A stretch of DNA of 63,645 bases, counting the filler, from Neolecta irregularis DAH-3 (lineage: Eukaryota): assembly GCA_001929475.1 (NCBI GenBank). It is 6 parts of 6 records of this genome, joined end to end, with 100 filler letters (N's around TTAATTAATTAA, not from the genome) between each part and the next. Parts side by side here need not be neighbours in the genome. Positions count along the whole stretch, not along the records: positions 60,952 to 63,645 come from LXFE01000654.1; 5 more parts are not named here. One strand, written 5' to 3'. The translations under genes and the position numbers were made by a program. Position 1 is the first letter of the stretch. Each line of letters opens with the position of its first letter. The notes beneath the pieces are model-generated. The model did not search any database. It saw nothing but the letters and a program-made list of their open reading frames with translations, and was not told the origin of the DNA. Of the stretch, positions 8,185 through 63,645 are shown one piece after another.

Positions 8185-10674
8185 CTAGTTAAGATTTTTC
8201 TGATTTTTTGGCAATTCATGAATGCAATGCCAAATTTGCTGCAGGGAAATCTTTCCTTTGCGACATAATGGGTACATAGCGCAGCCAATAGCAACATGAA
8301 ACTCTCCCAGGTGTGCCCATCGCACCTCGAGCTCCTCCAGGCTGGCAAATCTTGTCTTCCCCGGGAACCTGGGCCCTTTCGTTCGAGGAAGAGATTCACC
8401 GATTGTTTCAAATATTGCGGATAGGAAATTCATGACTGAGATTTTGTCGGAGATATATGACGGGTAAAGTGCGATAAGAGTTTCATATGCAGAATCGATA
8501 TGTTGTCGAATGAACCGGAGTCCAAGGATAACTTCTAGGTTTCGGATATTTGGTGCCAAAGCCGATGAGGTGGCTCTTGCATTTTTTAAAATATCTCCGA
8601 TCGAGTTATCAGGGCTCTGATTTGTCTTTCCGGAATACTGATTGTCAAAAGATGAACACTGACCTTGAGACTCCGTCATGGCAGGGCCCCAACTCGGGAC
8701 ATCTGATGTTTCTGGAGGGTTCCAACTCGGGACATCTGACATTTCTGGAGGGTTCCAACTAGGAACATCTGCCATTTCTGGAGACTTTTGTGGCCAAGGT
8801 TTTGATTCCACTCTTAATAACTCCTTCGTAAGATAAACTGTACTGTTGGCTTCTTCCACACAAACCTGTCCCCATCCAATAAGCCAGATGATTTTTAGAC
8901 CGATTATTCGCGAAATAGGATCATATCTTTCCCATTTCACTCGCAGAGAATTAAGAACCTGTCGTGCCGGAGGAACAAAAAGCTTTCCTGATATACTCTG
9001 AGACACAGCGGCAAACAAAGCGTCTGCAGCCGCACTTAAATTGACCGTAGATGGTTCTTTCTGAGTGAATAAATCTGCCAGTGCTGTTACCACACAAGAT
9101 CTGTGCCGCTGAACGAGTGGTAGCTGAAGCGAGACTTTAAAGAATAAGATTGTATAACGGCGAACTTTTCGACCCGTGCACCATTCAACGAGATCACTGT
9201 CACGAGGCCATTGTGACGGGGAGACAAGATTCGAATTAAGTGGACCAAGTTCAGACGACATGAATGAGGTGTCATGTTTCTCTCTTATAACAAAATCCAG
9301 ATCGTCCGTTTTATCCATCAAAACTGCAAATTTCGCAAGATTGGAGAGCTCCTCGTAACTCTTTTCGGCGAGACGTTCTCCCAAGTTTACCAAACAAGTA
9401 ATATACGATTTTGGATCTTTGACTTGTTTATCCAGTTCTTCTGTCCTCCGAACGATATCTTCCGAACTTTCGGCAGTAATCATATTATTCCCGAGTAATA
9501 TCAAACACCCTGATGCAACACTCTTGGGAAAACTATTGAGTGTTTCACATTTCTCAGAGAAGAAATGACATATTCTTTTCGATGGAAAGGGAGTCGATAA
9601 GCGAGGCAACTTCTTTGAAATCTCCCGGAATACTTCGATGACCAATCGCCGTAGGGGAAGTTTCGAGTTAAAAAAGTATTCAGAGCGGTGATATTCGTAC
9701 ACATCCATCGCAACATCGAAATGGGTCTTCAGGATATCAAGGGAGAATAAAGCATATGTATACTTAGATTTCTGCCGGGATATAGGCCTTTGAGGATCAG
9801 AGGTTAATAATCTTTTTAGTCTACTGTTTTGTTCAGGCGACAAGATGTGCAAGGTGCCAGTGTCGCAGTAGGAATTCGCTACTTTCGAACCGCCTGTGAG
9901 ATATCAGAATAACTCTAGTCTGGTAAGCTGGACCTGCATCCTCCAAAACATCAAGTTTAGGGAACTTTGAGAGATGAAGATTGTTCTTATCACCCAGTGC
10001 ATCCTCCAATGTACGCTTAGTTGAAAACTGAGACGTCGGATTTGAGAAAGCTTTCAGGTGTGGAGGATCACTCAAATTTTGAAGACGAGGATCTACCGCT
10101 CTGCTACTTGTTTGATCGCCAGAGTCTGAAACAACATGTGGTAAAAACCTTCGATTAGGTATATCAACTTCCGCGGCAGACGAAGGGTTTCGGCGAAGGG
10201 TGTTTTGATTTGAAAATATTTCGAGATCCCGTGAGAGTGAAGAGCGAAGTGCTACCGCCTTGTCTGCAATTTTTATCTAAAGAGATTTACTTTTATTAGT
10301 TATTAGTCCTATCATACCACCTGCTCCACCCTACGGGCCCTTGAAGCAGCTTCATCTTCGCCTGATTCATAGCCACTGTGAGGGTGACCATCGACACTTG
10401 TATCGATAGCAAGTTTTTCAAGATTAATTAGTTGAGTCATGTATAACAACAGAAGTCGGCTCTTTTGTTCGTTAATCCGGTTTTCAAGGAGGTTTGATTG
10501 GTCTCTATGAAGATGAAACTTGTCTGAGGAAAGTCCATCTCGATTTCCATCTATGTCGCCTCTGGAAGGAAAATCGACAGCGAGAACCTCAAGCGCCAAA
10601 GCCTGTTCTATCAGTTTCTCCGACTACTTGGAGTATACTGGCGCCATAGTGACTTGTCTCTTGCTCGATAGCAT
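8185..10674 (-). CDS. Large orphan multi-exon protein with three 11-aa repeats
   Basis: 555-aa ORF, plus upstream open frames (9833-~10278 and 10318-10602) joinable by short GT..CTAAT/CTGAT..AG introns. Candidate ATG at 10674; 3' end uncertain. Confidence 0.6.
8689..8783 (-). repeat. 3 x 33-bp coding tandem repeat (PPEMSDVPSWN)
   Basis: Unit ccaactcgggacatctgatgtttctggagggtt repeated with few substitutions. Confidence 0.9.
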
Positions 10675-11319: not shown

Positions 11320-12448
11320 NNNNNNNNNNAACGGGACACCCATTAAAACAGCAATCGAGTCATCAAAGTAACGTTGAGTCTGGTTGTTTGCGATTTGGAA
11401 ATAGTAAAACAATCTGCCAGCCGAGATATCCGTCAAGCTTCGGTAGAAACAGATCAGGTCCAATCCTACCTTATCTAAACAATTGATCTTTGGAACCTGT
11501 GGTAAGAAAATGATAAAATATTTCTGAATCATCTGCTGTTCCTCTCAGTTGTTGCGCTTTTCCAGAAACCTTGAATAGAAGCCTCTTACTCGGCATTATC
11601 CTCTTTGAATATTCGCACTTTTATATTCCACGGCAAAAACATTATTCTCGTGGCTGCATGGACTCCAGGACTATACATTACCTTGATTTCAGAATTCTGT
11701 CATCCTGAAAACGTCGCCAGAATTTGACACCACTAAAATAAGTAATTCTGGGTCTCTCTTACTTCCAAGGACGACTTCTTAGTCAGAGATTGGGGAGGAA
11801 TTCTGATCCTTTTCCAGTTCTGGCATTGCAACTTTCTTCTTTACAATTTGTTTTTCATGGCGTTCCGTTCTGCAGGGTTTTTTGTGGGGATTCGAAGTTA
11901 TCCCACAGCAAAAGATCCACCGGGTTGCCACCGTCACCATCTCACCGTTGGAGGTAGCTGAGGGAACTGTTATGGGAAGCCGCCATCGTGATGGCCTGGC
12001 TTATTCGGGCTATCACAGAATCGCCACCTAGTACGTAATAGGGAGGCCAATAGGCAACGACGGCAGTGTGCAAATGTGCAGATTTTATATATAAGTAGCA
12101 CCTAGCCTGATTATCAGACTAGGTGATATCTGATATTCAACGTAGTTACTCAAGTACCTAGATCGGAATATCCAACTAAAGTCCTGCCTAGCATCAACAT
12201 CGAGCTTGAGTGCTGACAGGTATGTTTTCGTGAACCCCGCACTATATTCAAATCTATGCCATATGCTAGATCAATCTCAAATTCGTGTGATCATTTGCCT
12301 ATCAAAACTGCCAGTTCGATACGGATGTTATCTATTATTTACGCCGAGTCCTAAATCTCAAACATTTCATTCAAACATTTCTAGCATTGTCAAGCGCTGA
12401 AATAACCCCGATCATTCAGTTAAATTAATTATTCTCATAGACATTTAT

Positions 12449-19024: not shown

Positions 19025-19090
19025 GGCAGTATCGGGAGGCAGTATCGGGAGGCAGTATCGGGAGGCAGTATCGGGAGGCAGTATCGGGAG
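19025..19090. repeat. 13-bp minisatellite (ggcagtatcggga)n, ~5 copies, running into a gap
   Basis: Direct inspection. Confidence 0.9.
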
Positions 19091-19190
19091 NNNNNNNNNN
19101 NNNNNNNNNNNNNNNNNNNNNNNNNNNNNNNNNNTTAATTAATTAANNNNNNNNNNNNNNNNNNNNNNNNNNNNNNNNNNNNNNNNNNNN
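19091..19190. other. Assembly gap with artificial TTAATTAATTAA linker (also 33819-33918, 46900-46999, 52559-52658, 60852-60951)
   Basis: Each is a 100-nt N block with a central linker giving stops in all six frames. Confidence 0.97.
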
Positions 19191-26939: not shown

Positions 26940-27600
26940 ATGGCATCTCTCCTACGGTGGTACAATAGGAAATTAGCTGCACGCCCCCTGTTGACCCAAT
27001 GTTGCTCGACTGCGGTATACATCAGCGAAACAAGCCCTTTGTTTGACATGAGATCCTTTTCGGTACTGGAGATATCATTTGCCAGCAGGTGATCGAGAAA
27101 AGGAAGTCCCACAACCTCTTGAGAACTTTGAGGTTTGGAATTTTTGGATTTGTAGGAGCAGCACCCGTATTCCTCACATGGTATAATGAAATTTCTAGCT
27201 CTCGTCATAGAAATGAAAATTAATGATACAGGTACGGCGCGTTAAACAGGTTTGTGACATTTAAAAACCAAAACCTTGCACTCATCAGCCGAGTTGCTCT
27301 TGACCAGCTGGCATTCGCTCCGTTAAATATTGCTTGGTTCTTCTCTGCTGTAACCTTTCTCGAGGGGAAATCTCTCCCCGAAATAAATCGAAAACTCTCG
27401 GACACGTATTGGTCTACGTTAAAAGATAATTGGAAGATTTGGCCTATGATCCAGTTGATCAATTTCAAGGTTTTATAGCGCGAAATAGAACAACTCTGAC
27501 TATCTAGTTTGTGCCGTTACACCACCGTCTTATTTTTGTAAATATATGGGCGCTGGGGTGGAACTCATACCTCTCCTATGTCAATGCATCCAAAACGTAA
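26940..27600 (+). CDS. SYM1: Mpv17/PMP22-family protein Sym1
   Basis: MASLLRWYNRKLAARPLLTQ, GTGDIICQQ, RVALDQLAFAP, NWKIWPMIQLINF, WNSYLS. Confidence 0.9.
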
Positions 27601-28087
27601 AGGAATTGGAAAACTGCATTTATTTTCCAAAGAATACTGTAGTAACATGTTTTGTACAGAAAATCCCTTGATGATTTCTATAAACTGACTTGTCTTAGCT
27701 CTGACCTGTGCTGGACGGCTGCTGGACATTAATGTTCCATTTGTCTTTCAAGATTAGTTTTAAAGACTTTACCTGAGCCACTTCCAATAACTGGCTGGTA
27801 GCACTCCTACCATGGATAGATAATTATTGTCCTTAGGCCATAATCCGGGAATCCCTGAATCTGATTCTGGCAATGGCCATGACATTATAGATAGGCTTGG
27901 TTGCCACTGTTTCTTTCTATCAATATTTTGCACACATCACTCTCTCGCTTGGGCAAAAAGGTAACTAGGATACTAGTTTTCATATCAAGTGGGTATCAAT
28001 GGCCGTCCAGAGGTATTCGAGAAGCATTTGACGAGTTAATATGGTCACAATTATTGCAGCTGTTGAGCGTTTAAAACAAACCGCCTT

Positions 28088-28294
28088 TGTAAGGAGGATA
28101 CAGGGTATATTCTTACCGATAGGGCAAGTGGCTTAGTGATATTGACGGCATTAAATAAGAGGGTATATCAAGAAGGGAACCACATATACCTAACCTGGGT
28201 TAGGTTCATATAACATAGGTTAGGTATGTCCCTGGGGTTACGTTCATATAACATAGGTTAGACAATTAAACCTACTCATATTTGTATCCCAAGC
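28088..28294 (+). mobile_element. Degenerate copy of the TGTAAG solo-LTR-like family with an internal duplication
   Basis: Aligns by eye to the reverse complement of 56132-56294; the core gttcatataacataggttag is present twice. Confidence 0.7.
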
Positions 28295-33295: not shown

Positions 33296-33941
33296 GGTAG
33301 TAAAACGTGGTGGTGAATGGATGAAGGAGTGTGGGATGTATGGACGACTAGGGAGTGGGCTAAGGTCAGGCGGTGCACAATAAATACACCTGATGATGTA
33401 TAAAAAGCGGCTAATTTACTACACATAACTGCCATGGTGGCGAGGATGCGTACTGCACCGAGAACCACGAATGCACCAGCCCCATCCCTGCCAAGAATTG
33501 TCCTGTTCAAGGATACTGATAAAGGGCTACTTCATGAAACAATCAAAAAAGTCACAGTTATTCACATTGCTCCATATCAGCCATGGCAATTGACATCATA
33601 TACAATGAACCTGCAGAGAAGAAAGTTGTAACCCCGCGATATACATATGCCTGTATGATGATATGCAAATGTAGACATATAATTGGACAATAATTTCGAA
33701 GAAAAGGTAAGACTGAATCAAACTATGTTCAGTATGGGATAAATTAGAGTGCACAAAGGCATAAGAGGTAGCTCAGTATTCAGCAAGTCGTTTTAACTTG
33801 ACAAATAATGACAAACATNNNNNNNNNNNNNNNNNNNNNNNNNNNNNNNNNNNNNNNNNNNNTTAATTAATTAANNNNNNNNNNNNNNNNNNNNNNNNNN
33901 NNNNNNNNNNNNNNNNNNCTCTATACCTATTTGGTATGGTA

Positions 33942-35037: not shown

Positions 35038-35349
35038 CTCCTTCCGCTTCTGACTCTGTGACCTCCATTTGTGCTCTGTGTGCCCCAACTGGACAGGCGC
35101 CACCAGTTCATTCGTTCCGTGGGGTCAGTGTGTCCACCCGCCCGCCGGAGAAATCTGAACCTCCCGCCCGCTGGGGAGGCTCCGGCGGGCGGGTGGGCGG
35201 ATGGATTTTTATGCCGCAGGCCTTCACCAAGAGATCCAAACCACCCACCAGTGTTGGGGATGGGCTGGGCTTTTTCAGGTGATATTAGATAATACTATTT
35301 GGGCAGCCCTTCCCCTCCGCTAAAGCATCCCTATCCGCCTTCCTACCCC

Positions 35350-35645
35350 CCTTGCCTGCCTGCCCGCCTCACCAGCCAGTCTCGCTAGCCTCTCCCATTG
35401 CTCGTGCCTCCCGCCCGCTCGTGCCTCCTCTTCCGTCCTCTTGTCCCGTGCGTCTCTCTCGCCTCGCCCGTCCCGTCCCGCTCGTCCCTCCCGCCTCGCC
35501 CGTCCCGTCCCGCTCGTCCGTCCCGCCTCGCCCGTCCCGTGTGTCCCGCCTGCCTGTCCTGTCCGTCCGCTCTCCCGTCCCGCCCGCCTATCTCGCTCTC
35601 CGACCCGCCTCTCCCGTCTGTTCAGCCTTTCCCCGCCCTGACCGC
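35350..35645. repeat. Pyrimidine-skewed CpG-rich repeat (cgcccgtcc/ctcgcc)n
   Basis: Low-complexity array; related tracts at ~35930-36030 (reverse), 52187-52558, ~61575-61660 (reverse) and 62935-63580. Confidence 0.85.
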
Positions 35646-36311
35646 CACTCGGAAAATGGACAAAAGTCAGTCTTCAAGTCTTTAATAGCAAAGTTGTGAT
35701 TGGTACTTGTTTTTTATATGGTTTATTAATCAACAGGTGCAACGCCAGAATATTTAGCTGGGCACTTCATGATTCAGGCCGCATAGTCTTTTCTTCCGGT
35801 TATTGCATTAGCACCTCAGCCGAATGAACGTATTTTGATATGTCGGCGGCTCCTGGTGGGAAAACAACCATTATCGCCGCTCTCCTCAAAAATACCGGCT
35901 GTGTGTTTGCTAACGATTCCAGTAAAGAGTCGGGTGAGGTGGGCGAGGCTCCCGAGATGCGCGAGATTGGCGGGCGAGGCAGGAGAGGCGTGAGAAATGG
36001 GAGAGACAGGCAAGATGGGCTTGTCGCACAGATTCTCTTTGTAGAGTTTTGCAGGAGGTTCTGATAAATATCAGAAAACGATTCTTAGATGAGATGAAGC
36101 GAAAACGATTCTTTGATTCTACAGTGTCGGGTGGTGATGGATGCTGTGGTTGTTGCAGTGGGTCGGGTGGTAGTAGCTGCAAACTGTGGCAGACCCATGT
36201 TGCTTTCGGACAAGAAATAGGAAATAGCAATTATTACTAAAAAACAAAGAGACACAACAAAAAAACAAACATTGACAAAAGCTAAACCACAATTCGACTA
36301 AGTAAATATTA

Positions 36312-36776
36312 CTAGTCAGCATCATTGTGCTGTGGCGAAGGAGCACGAGTATTATCTCCAAAGTGGTGTGGTTGAAATTCGATCGGTGCAGCAGTGTGCT
36401 GTGGATGATGTGCGGTCGCTACAGCAGTGTGCTGTGGATGATGTGCGGTCGTTACAGCAGTGTGCTGTGGATGATGTGCGGTCGCTACAGCAGTTTCTTG
36501 CGGTTGATGTGCGATCGCCATAGCAGTTTCTTGCGGTTGGTAATGGTGGCCATGATCATACACTGGGTGCGCATGACCTCCATGTTGGAAGTTCTCTGGA
36601 GCATATTGTGGTGGATTGTGATAGTTGTAATGACCATATTCTTCCCCCCGTTTAGCGAGCTCTTCAATCTATTAATGTATGTCTAGCAGCTTTTACAAAC
36701 CCAAGTCTGCCGAAGCACCCAGTGGAGCAGCTAGAACTACTCCAACAGATAGCACAAGAATATTGACATAAAGCAT
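36312..36776 (-). CDS. Putative secreted His-rich repeat prepropeptide (two exons)
   Basis: TATATAAA ~40 nt upstream; MLYVNILVLSVGVVLA-APLGASADL, a 39-nt GT..AG intron, then ELAKR and a His/Gln/Pro-rich body with ~5 x 11-aa repeats. Confidence 0.7.
36391..36545 (-). repeat. 33-bp coding tandem repeat, ~5 copies (TAHHPQHTAVA)
   Basis: Unit gcagtgtgctgtggatgatgtgcggtcgctaca, three near-perfect and two diverged copies. Confidence 0.92.
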
Positions 36777-60951: not shown

Positions 60952-63645
60952 AGTTCACCTAAAGTCTGGTATAGGAGTTCTAGCCCTCAAGGCATACACA
61001 CAAAGAGCTCCCACAATAGGTGAGGATAAGATGGGGGCCAAAGCTCTGCAGGGATCAAGTGATGAAGGCAAAGCAGTCACTGGCCACTGCACAGTACAGG
61101 GAGAGGATGATGACAGTGGTGAGTTGGCAGGCTGCAGGTTAGGGTTTTCGAGTCAGGCGGCCTTCAGCAGTGGTGGAATATACACAGGCATTGCAGATGA
61201 TGCAGCCCTCATAGTCCTGGTACCAGAGCAGTGTCAATGTTGTCCCTCAGTGCTGGCATGCAACATCCCACAGCCCTGCAAGTAGGCTGAGTGGGGGCAG
61301 GTTTGCCCATGATGTGTTTGTGGGCAGTGGTGAGCAATGGGTTTGGGTGCTTATTGTTGAACACTGGGCACCCGGCAAAGCCCACTGCACCTCCCATGCA
61401 GTCACAGCACCTGGACAGGTGCCTGTCTGCAGTGGTGGCACAGGTTGGCCACAAGGTGGCATGAGCAGATGCTGAGGTCAGCAGTGGTGGTGGGAGGACA
61501 TACAATGTCCTGCAGCTGGCTCAGATCCAGCATGACAAAGCCAGCAATCTCTTCGAGGCACGAGTATGCCTGGGAGGGCGGGACAAGCAGGATGTGCCGG
61601 CAGGACAAGTGTGATGCACTGGCAGGATGAGCAGGACGGGTGGGCAGGACAAGCAGGACATGTGTAATCATAATTTCTCACTTATGATACTACAGATGCC
61701 TTTGGAGTTTGGAAAAACTCACTACCATCAATTGTCAAGTGGAAAATAGCTACATGACATTGTTGTACATAATTCTACACTTGCTGCTCATGTGCTGACC
61801 CATAGGTTACAAGTTAGAATTGTAAACAACATCTATGAAGCTGTGAGCGATATGCACTCAGAGGAGTAGGTATGCGAGAGGACGAGAACTTGGTGAAGTT
61901 CGGAATGAGATGTAGGCTTGCACAATTAACAAAATGGTTTTTAGGATAAGTAATTATTTTTTTTTCCATGTACAAATGCCACATATTTATATGAATACAA
62001 TTATTTCCTAATTCGGCAGTCAATAGAAGTTACTGCTTTGTGTGGGAATTAGAACTTAACTCCAATAACTCCTGTTAGATCCATTATCTTAATTCTGCAA
62101 TCTCCACTTACCTCCATTATCACCACCATCAATGTATGACTGGCTCTAACTCACCACAGAACCTGCCTGTGTATCTAGGAATCCATGGTTGGTTGCTTAA
62201 GATTTCCTTGTAGTTTTGTGCAGGCACAGGTATCATTGGTCTATGATTCCTTAGGGTATTCCAGTCAATCATTGGTGTCGCATATTTGATAGGTACTCAC
62301 CAGGTGGCATTCCAGTGCAGCTCATCAACCAGGTGTGGAAACTTAACAAGCATTTCCATTAAGTATCATAACCCATAATAGTAGTCAGGGTTGCCACTAG
62401 GTTCTTTTTGGTGCTGCTCATAGCTCATACATAGTTGATCAAAGAAGGTCAATATTAACCATGCCTGGTATACTTCATGCCATCATTTCAGTGTGTCCCA
62501 CCAGTTTTCGTAATCTTCCTTTATACCCAGTCAATAGAGTAGGTCATTCAGCTGTTGAAAGAAGTATTTATGAATTTTGCTGATGATTCTCGCTGGTTAT
62601 TCCCCCCAATCCCTAAGGTCGCAAGACTCCACTTCAATCCATGTCCTTCAAGTAAGTTGTTGAGTGCTGTTTACTTCATCTGATACATAAGATGAGGCCT
62701 TTGATGACCATGAGGTATTGTCCTGACTTTCCTCACTACAGTAGTGATGCAGGGTTGCAGGTGTACAGGGTTGCACATAGGGAGCAACTTCCACCTCAAC
62801 AGGCTTTGCAAAGATAATTCTTGTATAATATAGTACATATATGCAATTTTTTCTTTGCATTTTCTAGCTCATTTTCCAACCAATTATCCTGCAATTCTCT
62901 ATCCAATGCTAAAACCCACCTCTCTCACATGTCTCAACTGCCTGTCTTGCCCGCCTGTCTTGCCTGTCTTGCCCGCCTGTCTTGCCCATCTTGCTCTCCT
63001 GCCTGTCTCGCCTGTCTTGCCCGCCTTTCTTGCCTGTCTTGCCTGTCTGTCACACCTGTCTTGCCTGCCTGTCTCACCTGTCTTGCCTGCCTATCTTGCC
63101 CATCTTGCTCTCCTACCTGTCTTGCCTGTCTTGCCTGCCTGTCTTGCCTGCCTGTCTTGCCTGCCTGTCTCACCTCTCTTGCCTACCTGTCTCACCTGTC
63201 TTGCCCACCTGTCTCACCTGTCTTGCTTGTCTTGTCTGCCTGTCTTACCCTCCTCACCCTCCTTGCCCGCCTTGCTCTCCTGCCTTTCCCACCTCACCCA
63301 TCTTTCCAGCCTTGCTCTCCTGTCTGGCTATCCCCCCCACCTTACCCACCTGCCTATTACACCTGCCTTGCCTGCCTTGCCCACCTTGCCTGATCACTCT
63401 CCCTTCTCACTCATCCCATCCCACCTCACCTATCTTGTGCTTTCCTTCCATGCCTCCTCTCCCTTCCCACCTATCCCTCCCATGTCTCCACCCCCTTCCT
63501 GCCCGTCCCTCCTATACCTCCTCTCTCTTCCCTCCTGCCCACCCTGCCCATCCCTCCTGTGCCTCCTGCCACCCGCCCCTTATTTGTATTTGCCAAGTAA
63601 AGTATTTACTATAAAAACATTGTTTACAGTGCAAGTACAAGAATC
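60952..63645. mobile_element. Decayed, CpG-poor repeat/transposon-derived region
   Basis: No recognisable gene; TG/CA-rich; contains the (cttgcctgcctgt)n array at 62935-63580. Confidence 0.55.

What the first reader, a model, noticed from the sequence alone, without database searches (positions are those of the whole stretch)
62935..63580. Same repeat in CpG-intact and CpG-decayed states: footprint of CpG methylation or RIP-like defence
Seen: arrays at 35350-35645 and 52187-52558 read ctcgcccgcccgtctcgcc, while this one reads cttgcctgcctgtcttgcc and ctcacctgtc, i.e. most CG replaced by TG or CA. The block 60952-63645 looks CpG-poor throughout. Known: deamination of symmetric 5mCpG gives TpG+CpA; classical Neurospora RIP prefers CpA; S. 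pombe lacks 5mC. Inference: region-specific CpG-targeted methylation or mutation in a lineage where it is poorly described.
Basis: partly seen in the sequence, partly recalled or inferred. Interest (0 to 1): 0.7.

Follow-up and report, generated by a model that had tools for sequence, protein, structure and literature searches.

The report
CpG-decayed repeat contig in a fungus
A short, gene-less piece of a fungal genome assembly has lost about five in six of its CpG sites to TpG/CpA, including its copy of a repeat that is CpG-rich elsewhere, which is the ordinary footprint of cytosine methylation and not a new defence system.

Summary
Block 60952-63645 has CpG o/e 0.157, against 0.85-0.97 in the six other blocks of more than 1 kb. 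Eight of its 9 500-nt windows lie below the lowest of 234 windows elsewhere.

The array at 62915-63594 (A3) is related to the CpG-rich array at 52174-52558 (A2). Both have a 22-nt period, and alignment scores exceed every order-3 Markov control. Cytosines in A2 CpGs read T in A3 at 26 of 39 sites, against 30 of 174 for other cytosines.

Three caveats:
- The block is a separate contig. It is joined to the rest by an artificial linker (N44-TTAATTAATTAA-N44), so "region-specific" means contig-specific, and foreign DNA is not excluded.
- The array copies arose by amplification, so few independent mutations are needed. The stronger evidence is the 1983-nt non-array part, with 17 CpG where about 100 are expected.
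- No methyltransferase gene lies in the window, and 5mC was not observed.

Classical RIP is rejected (TpA/ApT 0.77, substrate index 1.60). So is TCG-specific hypermutation.

My best reading is long-term deamination of methylated CpG in gene-poor repeat DNA of a deep-branching ascomycete. This mechanism is known in fungi, so interest is moderate to low.

The parts
60952..63645 (.). CpG-poor contig, cut by the window end: 2694 nt, GC 48.1%, CpG o/e 0.157, TpG+CpA o/e 1.47, no recognisable gene
   Evidence: for composition; 0 meaningful Pfam matches on 21 ORF fragments; 0 hits for the longest stop-interrupted frame among 1.84 billion representatives; no similarity of the non-array parts to the rest of the window.
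62915..63594 (+). A3: pyrimidine-rich degenerate tandem array (periods 9, 13, 22) in the CpG-decayed state. 7 CpG, 74 TpG, 32 CpA within 62935-63580.
   Evidence: Homology to A2.
61540..61670 (-). Purine-rich partner of A3 in inverted orientation, 1.26 kb upstream
   Evidence: arms 61621-61668 and 63356-63403, 48 nt, 73% complementary; its reverse complement against A3 scores 28, reached by 1 of 300 order-3 controls. Its relation to A1 or A2 is not shown.
52174..52558 (+). A2: CpG-intact array of the same family (44 CpG, o/e 1.23, GC 72%). It ends at a contig end and lies just 5' of an OPT-transporter gene on the minus strand.
   Evidence: OPT Pfam matches at 49393-51702.
35334..35653 (+). A1: CpG-intact pyrimidine-rich array (38 CpG, o/e 1.25). 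It is only loosely related to A2 and A3.
   Evidence: A1 against A2 scores 63, reached by 35 of 200 order-3 controls. A3 against A1 scores 50 raw (reached by 10 of 200) and 84 after CG->TG (reached by 0 of 200).
35925..36024 (-). Purine-rich inverted partner at the A1 locus. Its reverse complement is clearly related to A2.
   Evidence: pairs I1, I3, I4 and I9, 75-85% complementary; score 38 against A2, reached by 0 of 300 order-3 controls.
35736..35929 (+). Pseudogene fragment of the rRNA m5C methyltransferase Nop2 (residues about 311-380), with an in-frame TAG and a 1-nt frameshift, enclosed by A1 and its inverted partner
   Evidence: E 4.5e-14 to chain 8esq_q residues 311-344. E 1.2e-10 to chain 6elz_q residues 351-380, in a different reading frame. 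No other ORF of 110 aa or more in the window matched an NSUN domain.
60852..60951 (.). Artificial contig linker (N44 + TTAATTAATTAA + N44), one of five in the window
   Evidence: The others lie at 19091-19190, 33819-33918, 46900-46999 and 52559-52658.

Best explanation
The last block is a separate, gene-poor repeat contig of the same fungal genome. It has been, or still is, CpG-methylated, while the gene-rich contigs are not. 5-methylcytosine deaminates to thymine, so over a long time about five in six CpGs became TpG (top-strand event) or CpA (bottom-strand event). This happened in unique sequence and in the local copy of a C-rich minisatellite family alike. The A3 array was probably amplified from units that had already decayed.

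Shown:
- Contig-wide, CpG-specific loss with a matching TpG/CpA gain, independent of the 5' neighbour.
- Homology of A3 to a CpG-intact array.

Inferred:
- That the contig belongs to this genome.
- That methylation is the cause.
- That the process is slow and passive rather than enzymatic.
For: 1. CpG o/e is 0.157, against 0.85-0.97 in the six other blocks of more than 1 kb. Eight of 9 windows lie below the minimum of 234 windows elsewhere.
2. The non-array 1983 nt holds 17 CpG where about 100 are expected from base composition. TG (172) and CA (197) are nearly symmetric there.
3. All four NCG contexts are depleted (o/e 0.06-0.20, against 0.71-1.07 in the main blocks). TpA-containing trinucleotides are unchanged.
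4. Decaying 82% of the CpGs of the main contigs in silico predicts TG/CA rho 1.42; 1.50 is observed. On the eight dinucleotide classes not touched by CpG decay, the contig is no further from the genome mean than 10 of 52 decayed 2-kb chunks.
5. A3 is homologous to A2. Both have a 22-nt period. blastn finds 66-80% identity, best E 3.4e-9. Alignment scores exceed all order-3 Markov controls. CG->TG conversion of A2 raises shared 12-mers with A3 from 1.2% to 19.1%; converting the same number of non-CpG C gives mean 0.5% and maximum 3.1%, and 0 of 500 controls reach 19.1%.
6. With scoring neutral to all transitions, CpG C reads T at 26 of 39 sites, against 30 of 174 for other C (Fisher 3e-9).
7. 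Non-CpG divergence between A3 and A2 is itself high: 17% C->T, and 35 of 104 non-TpG T changed. This fits a slow process better than an acute one.
8. In print: CpG-transition excess in repeats of Agaricomycotina and Ustilaginomycotina is attributed to 5mC deamination (PMC3318451, passages). DNA methyltransferase homologues are reported in some early-diverging ascomycetes: Neolecta irregularis and Saitoella complicata (bioRxiv 10.1101/2023.05.12.540427, passages), and S. complicata and Taphrina deformans (PMC7882544, passages).
Against: - The contig is joined to the rest only by an artificial linker, so neither adjacency nor same-genome origin is shown directly.
- It holds no fungal gene, and nothing in its 1963 non-array bases matches the window or any protein searched.
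- No DNA methyltransferase and no transposon domain was found among 87 ORFs of the main blocks. 5mC was not measured.
- A3 copies share ancestry. Four of its 7 remaining CpGs sit in the identical 9-mer TGCCCGCCT, so the array may record only a handful of independent mutations. The Fisher tests therefore overstate independence.
- In A3 the decay is strand-asymmetric: 26 C->T against 10 G->A, and 74 TG against 32 CA. G->A at CpG is not enriched over other G (10 of 39 against 3 of 18, p 0.52). Simple symmetric deamination does not predict this.
- The direction of change is not polarised by an outgroup.
Confidence: 0.6

Rival explanations
1. The contig is foreign DNA in the assembly, from an organism with genome-wide CpG methylation such as a vertebrate. 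Its resemblance to A2 is then a coincidence between low-complexity C/T-rich arrays.
For: It is a separate contig behind a linker. It holds no fungal gene and has no protein homologue. CpG o/e of about 0.16 is typical of vertebrate DNA (recalled, not from a call). No other part of the window shows this state.
Against: A3 shares the 22-nt period and unit order with A2, and scores above all order-3 Markov and reversed controls. A 60-nt ungapped stretch is 80% identical. The contig also has an inverted partner array like the A1 locus. Its dinucleotide signature outside CpG/TpG/CpA lies within the range of in-silico-decayed chunks of the main contigs, and its TpG/CpA excess (1.50) matches decay from this genome's composition (1.42). 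No eukaryotic DNA collection was available, so a direct match to another organism stayed unchecked.
Confidence: 0.15
2. An enzymatic, repeat-directed hypermutation aimed at CpG caused the decay in few generations. A RID/Masc1-type or DNMT-coupled deaminating activity acting on duplicated or fold-back DNA would be the agent, not slow spontaneous deamination.
For: The affected DNA carries repeats in direct and inverted orientation. The decay in A3 is strand-biased, 26 C->T against 10 G->A, which a strand-directed enzyme could produce. RID and DIM-2 homologues are reported in two Taphrinomycotina (PMC7882544, passages).
Against: Unique, non-repeated sequence of the contig is as depleted as the array (o/e 0.17 against 0.18), and symmetrically so (TG 172, CA 197). 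Non-CpG divergence between A3 and A2 is high too. There is no 5'-neighbour preference. The strand bias can come from amplification of a few mutated units. PMC7882544 reports no detectable RIP in the three Taphrinomycotina genomes it analysed (abstract and passages).
Confidence: 0.12
3. Classical Neurospora-type RIP (C->T mainly at CpA) produced the state.
For: The sequence is repetitive and the organism is an ascomycete.
Against: TpA/ApT is 0.77, (CpA+TpG)/(ApC+GpT) is 1.60, the composite is -0.83 and GC is 48%. CpA and TpG are enriched, not consumed. TpA trinucleotides are unchanged.
Confidence: 0.01
4. The direction is the reverse. The TpG-rich state is ancestral, and the arrays in gene-rich contigs gained CpG, for example by GC-biased gene conversion or selection for CpG-rich promoter DNA.
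For: No outgroup polarises the change. A2 lies directly 5' of a gene. Some sites go the other way: T of TpG in A2 reads C in A3 at 5 of 18 sites.
Against: This would not explain why the unique 1983 nt of the contig also lack CpG (17 observed, about 100 expected). Nor would it explain why the genome background sits at CpG o/e of about 0.9. I know of no mechanism that converts T to C specifically before G (my knowledge, not a call).
Confidence: 0.04

Closest known systems
CpG depletion of methylated repeats and transposons by 5mC deamination, as described for Agaricomycotina and Ustilaginomycotina repeats (PMC3318451) and for vertebrate genomes
   Same: CpG-specific loss, matching TpG/CpA gain, no 5'-neighbour effect, and restriction to gene-poor repeat DNA while genes keep their CpG.
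   Different: The host is a deep-branching ascomycete, not a basidiomycete. The affected sequence is a minisatellite plus unidentified DNA, not a recognisable transposon. Neither methylation nor a methyltransferase was observed.
Repeat-induced point mutation (RIP) of Neurospora and other Pezizomycotina
   Same: C->T transitions accumulate in repeated DNA of an ascomycete.
   Different: The target dinucleotide is CpG, not CpA. All three RIP indices point the other way, there is no AT enrichment, and unique flanking sequence is affected as well.
TpCpG hypermutation of Pucciniomycotina repeats (PMC3318451)
   Same: The C of a CpG is the mutated base.
   Different: TCG (o/e 0.19) is no more depleted than CCG (0.20), GCG (0.17) or ACG (0.06).
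Foldback-type elements: inverted arms built of short tandem subrepeats, sometimes enclosing captured DNA (recalled from Drosophila FB elements, not from a call)
   Same: At two loci a C-rich array faces a G-rich partner in inverted orientation. One pair encloses a Nop2 pseudogene fragment.
   Different: The arms are only 72-85% complementary, with fuzzy ends. No target-site duplication or transposase was identified, and mobility is not shown.

Membership tests
5mCpG-deamination footprint (methylated compartment) | CpG observed/expected far below the genome background | tested here: met
   0.157 against 0.85-0.97. Eight of 9 windows lie below the minimum of 234 background windows.
5mCpG-deamination footprint (methylated compartment) | Matching excess of TpG and CpA, on both strands | tested here: met
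   TpG+CpA o/e is 1.47. Rho is 1.50, against 1.42 predicted from 82% decay of this genome's CpGs. TG 172 and CA 197 in the non-array part. In the array itself the ratio is skewed, 74 to 32.
5mCpG-deamination footprint (methylated compartment) | No dependence on the base 5' of the CpG | tested here: met
   ACG 0.06, CCG 0.20, GCG 0.17, TCG 0.19.
5mCpG-deamination footprint (methylated compartment) | 5-methylcytosine present on the DNA | not testable with these tools
   Sequence only; no methylation data.
5mCpG-deamination footprint (methylated compartment) | A cytosine-5 DNA methyltransferase gene in the genome | not testable with these tools
   Only the window can be read. 0 of 87 main-block ORFs scanned match a DNA methylase domain. 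The only m5C-methyltransferase-like sequence is an RNA-methyltransferase (Nop2) pseudogene fragment.
5mCpG-deamination footprint (methylated compartment) | The affected DNA belongs to the same genome as the unaffected DNA | tested here: inconclusive
   Supported by the A3-A2 homology and a compatible dinucleotide signature. But the contig is joined only by an artificial linker, and no eukaryotic DNA collection was available for a search.
Classical RIP | [quoted passage not shown] | tested here: not met
   0.77, 1.60 and -0.83.
Classical RIP | Marked fall in GC content of the affected DNA | tested here: not met
   The contig GC is 48.1%, within the 42.5-49.5% range of the other blocks.
Pucciniomycotina-type TpCpG hypermutation | Preferential loss of TCG over VCG | tested here: not met
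   TCG o/e is 0.19, against 0.06-0.20 for the others.
Foldback-type mobile element | Long inverted arms made of tandem subrepeats | tested here: inconclusive
   Inverted partners are present at both loci. Significance is modest: 1 of 300 and 0 of 300 order-3 controls reach two of the comparisons, but 30 of 300 reach the score for the G-arm against A1 itself.
Foldback-type mobile element | Target-site duplication and evidence of mobility | not tested
   The array ends are too fuzzy to place boundaries, and no empty site is available.

The most novel reading that the evidence does not exclude
A deep-branching ascomycete lineage with no close named relative keeps a sharply bounded, vertebrate-level CpG-methylated compartment. 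Within it, a fold-back minisatellite is mutated preferentially on its C-rich strand (about 2.6 C->T per G->A). That would point to a strand-directed, CpG-specific, RIP-like deamination acting on hairpin-forming repeats, and not to passive decay.
Probability: 0.1. Interest if true: 0.65.

Novelty: new member of a known kind. Interest (0 to 1): 0.3.

Why it matters
If the contig is truly part of this genome, this early-diverging ascomycete has, or long had, an effective CpG methylation system confined to gene-poor repeat DNA. The papers I could read give little for such lineages. One review table lists only S. pombe, without 5mC, for Taphrinomycotina (PMC7862722, passages). Two other papers report methyltransferase homologues in Neolecta, Saitoella and Taphrina without methylation maps. 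A sequence-only footprint like this one can pick out which contigs to examine with bisulfite or nanopore data. It can also flag unplaced CpG-poor contigs as candidate heterochromatin or centromere fragments. The mechanism itself is textbook, so the value is as a pointer, not a discovery.

Tried and rejected
- Coding content of the CpG-poor contig. Pfam on 21 ORF fragments at E<=10 gave only two chance-level matches (E 0.11 and 0.25). The longest stop-interrupted frame is 62072-62863 on the minus strand; 6 of its first 7 stops are TGA. Read with X at stops, it gave 0 hits at E<=0.001 among 1.84 billion representative proteins.
- Homologues of the non-array parts elsewhere in the window. blastn with word size 9 found only three 16-39-nt matches, E 0.039-0.14. 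Transition-tolerant Smith-Waterman scored 29-42, against 27-45 for reversed and complement controls.
- Relation of the G-rich arm 61540-61670 to A1 and A2. It does not exceed composition controls (70 against 72 and 58 against 52; 28 of 300 and 25 of 300 order-3 controls reach it).
- A1 and A2 as close relatives of each other. Not shown: score 63, reached by 35 of 200 order-3 controls.
- G->A at CpG in A3. Not enriched over other G (10 of 39 against 3 of 18, p 0.52).
- Rfam (0 matches) and tRNA scan (0 genes).
- Naming the organism. ABC-D and cyclin searches gave no named hit above 57% identity. A cyclin tree places the window inside Ascomycota (100/99 support) but unresolved within it.
- Bewick et al. 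2019 could not be read, by PMC id or by DOI. What it says about Taphrinomycotina is not used.
Full report
What the window is. The 63,645 nt are not one stretch of chromosome. Five identical spacers (44 N, TTAATTAATTAA, 44 N) lie at 19091-19190, 33819-33918, 46900-46999, 52559-52658 and 60852-60951. Two 10-N gaps lie at 159-168 and 11320-11329. The spacers carry a stop in all six frames and are plainly artificial, so the window is six contigs strung together. Several contigs end in tandem repeats (19025-19090, 52174-52558, 60826-60851), as short-read contigs do. The block the finding sits in, 60952-63645, is therefore an independent contig cut off by the window end. Its position next to the others carries no information.

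The other contigs. They are gene-dense and fungal. I scanned 87 ORFs from the main blocks (12, 11, 64). The matches include a fungal-specific transcription factor domain, Swc3, a cyclin, But2, ABC and OPT transporters, syntaxin, UreF and DnaJ. None matched a transposon domain or a DNA methyltransferase. The cyclin ORF has a 93% identical unnamed relative, and no named hit above 57% (Lipomyces, Taphrina, Kwoniella, Pneumocystis). In a tree of 18 cyclins the window falls on the ascomycete side of a 100/99-supported split, unresolved among Taphrina+Pneumocystis and Saccharomycotina+Pezizomycotina. I call it a deep-branching ascomycete and cannot name it.

Checking the observation. The decayed 19-mer it quoted occurs exactly twice. 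The CpG-intact 19-mer occurs nowhere exactly. It occurs twice with one mismatch, both times in the 52174-52558 array (A2), and never in the 35334-35653 array (A1).
- A1 has 38 CpG (o/e 1.25, GC 72.6%).
- A2 has 44 CpG (o/e 1.23, GC 71.8%).
- A3 has 7 CpG (o/e 0.18, GC 59.6%), with 74 TG and 32 CA.
The fall in GC is about what losing 11 CpG per 100 nt predicts.

The whole contig has CpG o/e 0.157, against 0.85-0.97 for the six other blocks of more than 1 kb. In 500-nt windows the rest of the window gives mean 0.90, sd 0.18 and minimum 0.36 (n = 234). The nine windows of the last contig give 0.08-0.40, and eight of them lie below that minimum.

Are the arrays really related? Low-complexity sequence makes this the weak point, so I used several controls.
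- Period. TRF finds a 22-nt period in both A2 (52320-52436) and A3 (62939-63254).
- blastn finds only array-to-array matches, 66-80% identity, best E 3.4e-9, including a 60-nt ungapped stretch at 80%.
- Smith-Waterman (+1/-1): A3 against A2 scores 77. Reversed A3 scores 27. Sequences simulated from A3's own order-3 Markov chain score 54.7 +/- 6.6 with maximum 72, and 0 of 200 reach 77.
- After converting every CG in A2 to TG the score rises to 112, against 76.8 +/- 7.4 and maximum 98; 0 of 200 reach it.
- The same conversion raises the share of A3 12-mers found in A2 from 1.2% to 19.1%. Converting the same number of non-CpG cytosines gives 0.5% on average and 3.1% at most; 0 of 500 controls reach 19.1%.
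- A3 against A1 is weaker: raw 50, reached by 10 of 200 controls. After conversion it scores 84, reached by 0 of 200.
- A1 against A2 is not above the order-3 control: 63, reached by 35 of 200.
So the pairing that carries the finding is A3 with A2.

Which sites differ? I aligned 44-nt windows of A3 to A2 under a scoring that treats every transition alike. Nine of 15 windows passed the score cut.
- C of CpG in A2 reads T in A3 at 26 of 39 sites. Other C does so at 30 of 174 (Fisher 3e-9).
- Against A1 the figures are 24 of 35 and 22 of 100 (2e-6), from 6 of 15 windows.
- The control comparisons A1-to-A2 (6 of 21 against 13 of 82) and A2-to-A1 (4 of 28 against 10 of 56) are not significant.
- G of CpG reads A at 10 of 39 sites, not more than other G (3 of 18, p 0.52).

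Two cautions apply. First, the copies in a tandem array share ancestry. Four of the 7 surviving CpGs in A3 lie in the same 9-mer, so A3 was probably amplified from units that had already changed. The independent events may be few, and the Fisher tests overstate independence. Second, non-CpG divergence is also high.

The stronger evidence is outside the array. The 1983 nt from 60952 to 62934 hold 17 CpG where base composition predicts about 100 (o/e 0.17). TG (172) and CA (197) are nearly equal there. All four NCG trinucleotides are depleted (0.06-0.20, against 0.71-1.07 in the main blocks). The TpA-containing trinucleotides are the same as in the main blocks. If 82% of the CpGs of the main contigs are decayed in silico, TG/CA rho becomes 1.42; the contig shows 1.50. 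On the eight dinucleotide classes untouched by CpG decay, the contig is no further from the genome mean than 10 of 52 decayed 2-kb chunks. The contig thus looks like this genome after CpG decay. With 2 kb, that test has little power to exclude other sources.

What it is not.
- Classical RIP consumes CpA/TpG and makes TpA. Here TpA/ApT is 0.77, (CpA+TpG)/(ApC+GpT) is 1.60, the composite is -0.83 and GC is 48%. The thresholds quoted in PMC7882544 are >1.15, <=0.75 and >0 (passages).
- The TpCpG-specific hypermutation of Pucciniomycotina (PMC3318451, passages) is excluded, because there is no 5'-neighbour effect.
- It is not a general property of non-coding DNA in this genome. The non-coding arrays A1 and A2 are CpG-rich, and no 500-nt window elsewhere falls below 0.36.

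What else is on the contig. I could identify nothing.
- Pfam on 21 ORF fragments gave only chance-level matches.
- A minus-strand frame at 62072-62863 is open for stretches of up to 71 codons, and 6 of its first 7 stops are TGA. CGA->TGA decay would produce that pattern. Read with X at the stops, however, it has no relative among 1.84 billion representative proteins, so I do not call it a gene.
- The non-array parts have no counterpart in the window, even under transition-tolerant scoring.
- Upstream of A3, at 61540-61670, lies a purine-rich stretch in inverted orientation. One arm pair is 48 nt at 73% complementarity. Its score against A3 is reached by 1 of 300 order-3 controls.

The repeat family. 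The A1 locus has the same layout: a C-rich array (35334-35653), a spacer, then a G-rich partner (35925-36024). The reverse complement of that partner matches A2 well (38, reached by 0 of 300 controls). The spacer holds a fragment of the rRNA m5C methyltransferase Nop2, residues about 311-380, with an in-frame TAG and a 1-nt frameshift. It is CpG-intact. Arrays of short subrepeats in inverted orientation around captured DNA recall foldback-type elements. That comparison is recalled, not tested. I found no target-site duplication or transposase, and the arm ends are fuzzy. A2 lies directly 5' of an OPT transporter gene.

Most likely mechanism. The contig is a fragment of gene-poor repeat DNA of this fungus that is, or long was, CpG-methylated. 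5mC deaminates to T and CpG decays to TpG/CpA. The gene-rich contigs are unmethylated and keep their CpG, including their copies of the repeat family. The near-equilibrium CpG level and the high non-CpG divergence favour a slow passive process. The literature I could read makes this ordinary for fungi.
- CpG-transition excess in repeats of Agaricomycotina and Ustilaginomycotina is attributed to 5mC deamination (PMC3318451, passages).
- A 2026 review states the general principle (PMC13297926, passages).
- Methyltransferase homologues are reported in Neolecta irregularis and Saitoella complicata (bioRxiv 10.1101/2023.05.12.540427, passages), and DIM-2/RID-like genes in S. complicata and Taphrina deformans. 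The same paper found no RIP in Taphrinomycotina (PMC7882544, abstract and passages).
- Supplementary tables of these papers were not opened and may list more lineages.
I give this reading 0.6.

Rivals.
- Foreign DNA from a CpG-methylating organism (0.15). It explains the missing genes and the isolation of the contig, but not the homology to A2.
- An enzymatic CpG-directed hypermutation (0.12). It is suggested only by the 2.6:1 strand bias in A3. Amplification of a few units can also produce that bias, and the symmetric decay of the unique sequence argues against it.
- The reverse direction, CpG gain in A1 and A2 (0.04).
- Classical RIP (0.01).

Verdict. The mechanism is a known kind, and the case would be a new example in a poorly sampled lineage. 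Interest is 0.3.

Noticed in passing
window 19091-19190, 33819-33918, 46900-46999, 52559-52658, 60852-60951: Five identical artificial spacers (N44-TTAATTAATTAA-N44) join six independent contigs. Any inference from adjacency across them is void.
   Followed up: yes
window 35736-35929: Pseudogene fragment of the rRNA m5C methyltransferase Nop2 (residues about 311-380). It has an in-frame TAG, a 1-nt frameshift and what looks like the end of an intron before it. It is enclosed by a C-rich array and its inverted G-rich partner, which suggests capture by a foldback-like repeat.
   Followed up: partly
window 19025-19090: Perfect 13-nt tandem repeat (GGCAGTATCGGGA, 5.1 copies, 100% matches) running into a contig end. 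It starts about 30 nt after the apparent stop of a WD40-repeat gene. Its nature is unknown.
   Followed up: no
window 35134-35196: Perfect 17-nt inverted repeat (CCACCCGCCCGCCGGAG / CTCCGGCGGGCGGGTGG, 29 nt apart), about 140 nt upstream of array A1. It is built from the same GCCCGCC motif as the arrays.
   Followed up: no
window 62935-63580: Decay of the array is strand-asymmetric: 74 TpG against 32 CpA, and 26 C->T against 10 G->A at aligned CpG sites. The unique part of the contig is symmetric (172 TG, 197 CA).
   Followed up: partly
window 62072-62863, minus strand: A reading frame with open stretches of up to 71 codons. Six of its first 7 stops are TGA, as CGA->TGA decay would give. It has no protein relative and no Pfam match.
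   Followed up: yes
window 36389-36527 and 8689-8783: Two well-conserved 33-nt tandem repeats (4.2 and 2.9 copies, 90-91% matches) lying inside long ORFs without Pfam matches. They may be in-frame 11-residue protein repeats.
   Followed up: no
window 27501-28250 and 50501-51250: The lowest CpG o/e values outside the last contig (0.36-0.51). The second region also has raised TpG/CpA (1.33-1.39) and lies inside the OPT gene region. Probably the tail of the distribution.
   Followed up: no
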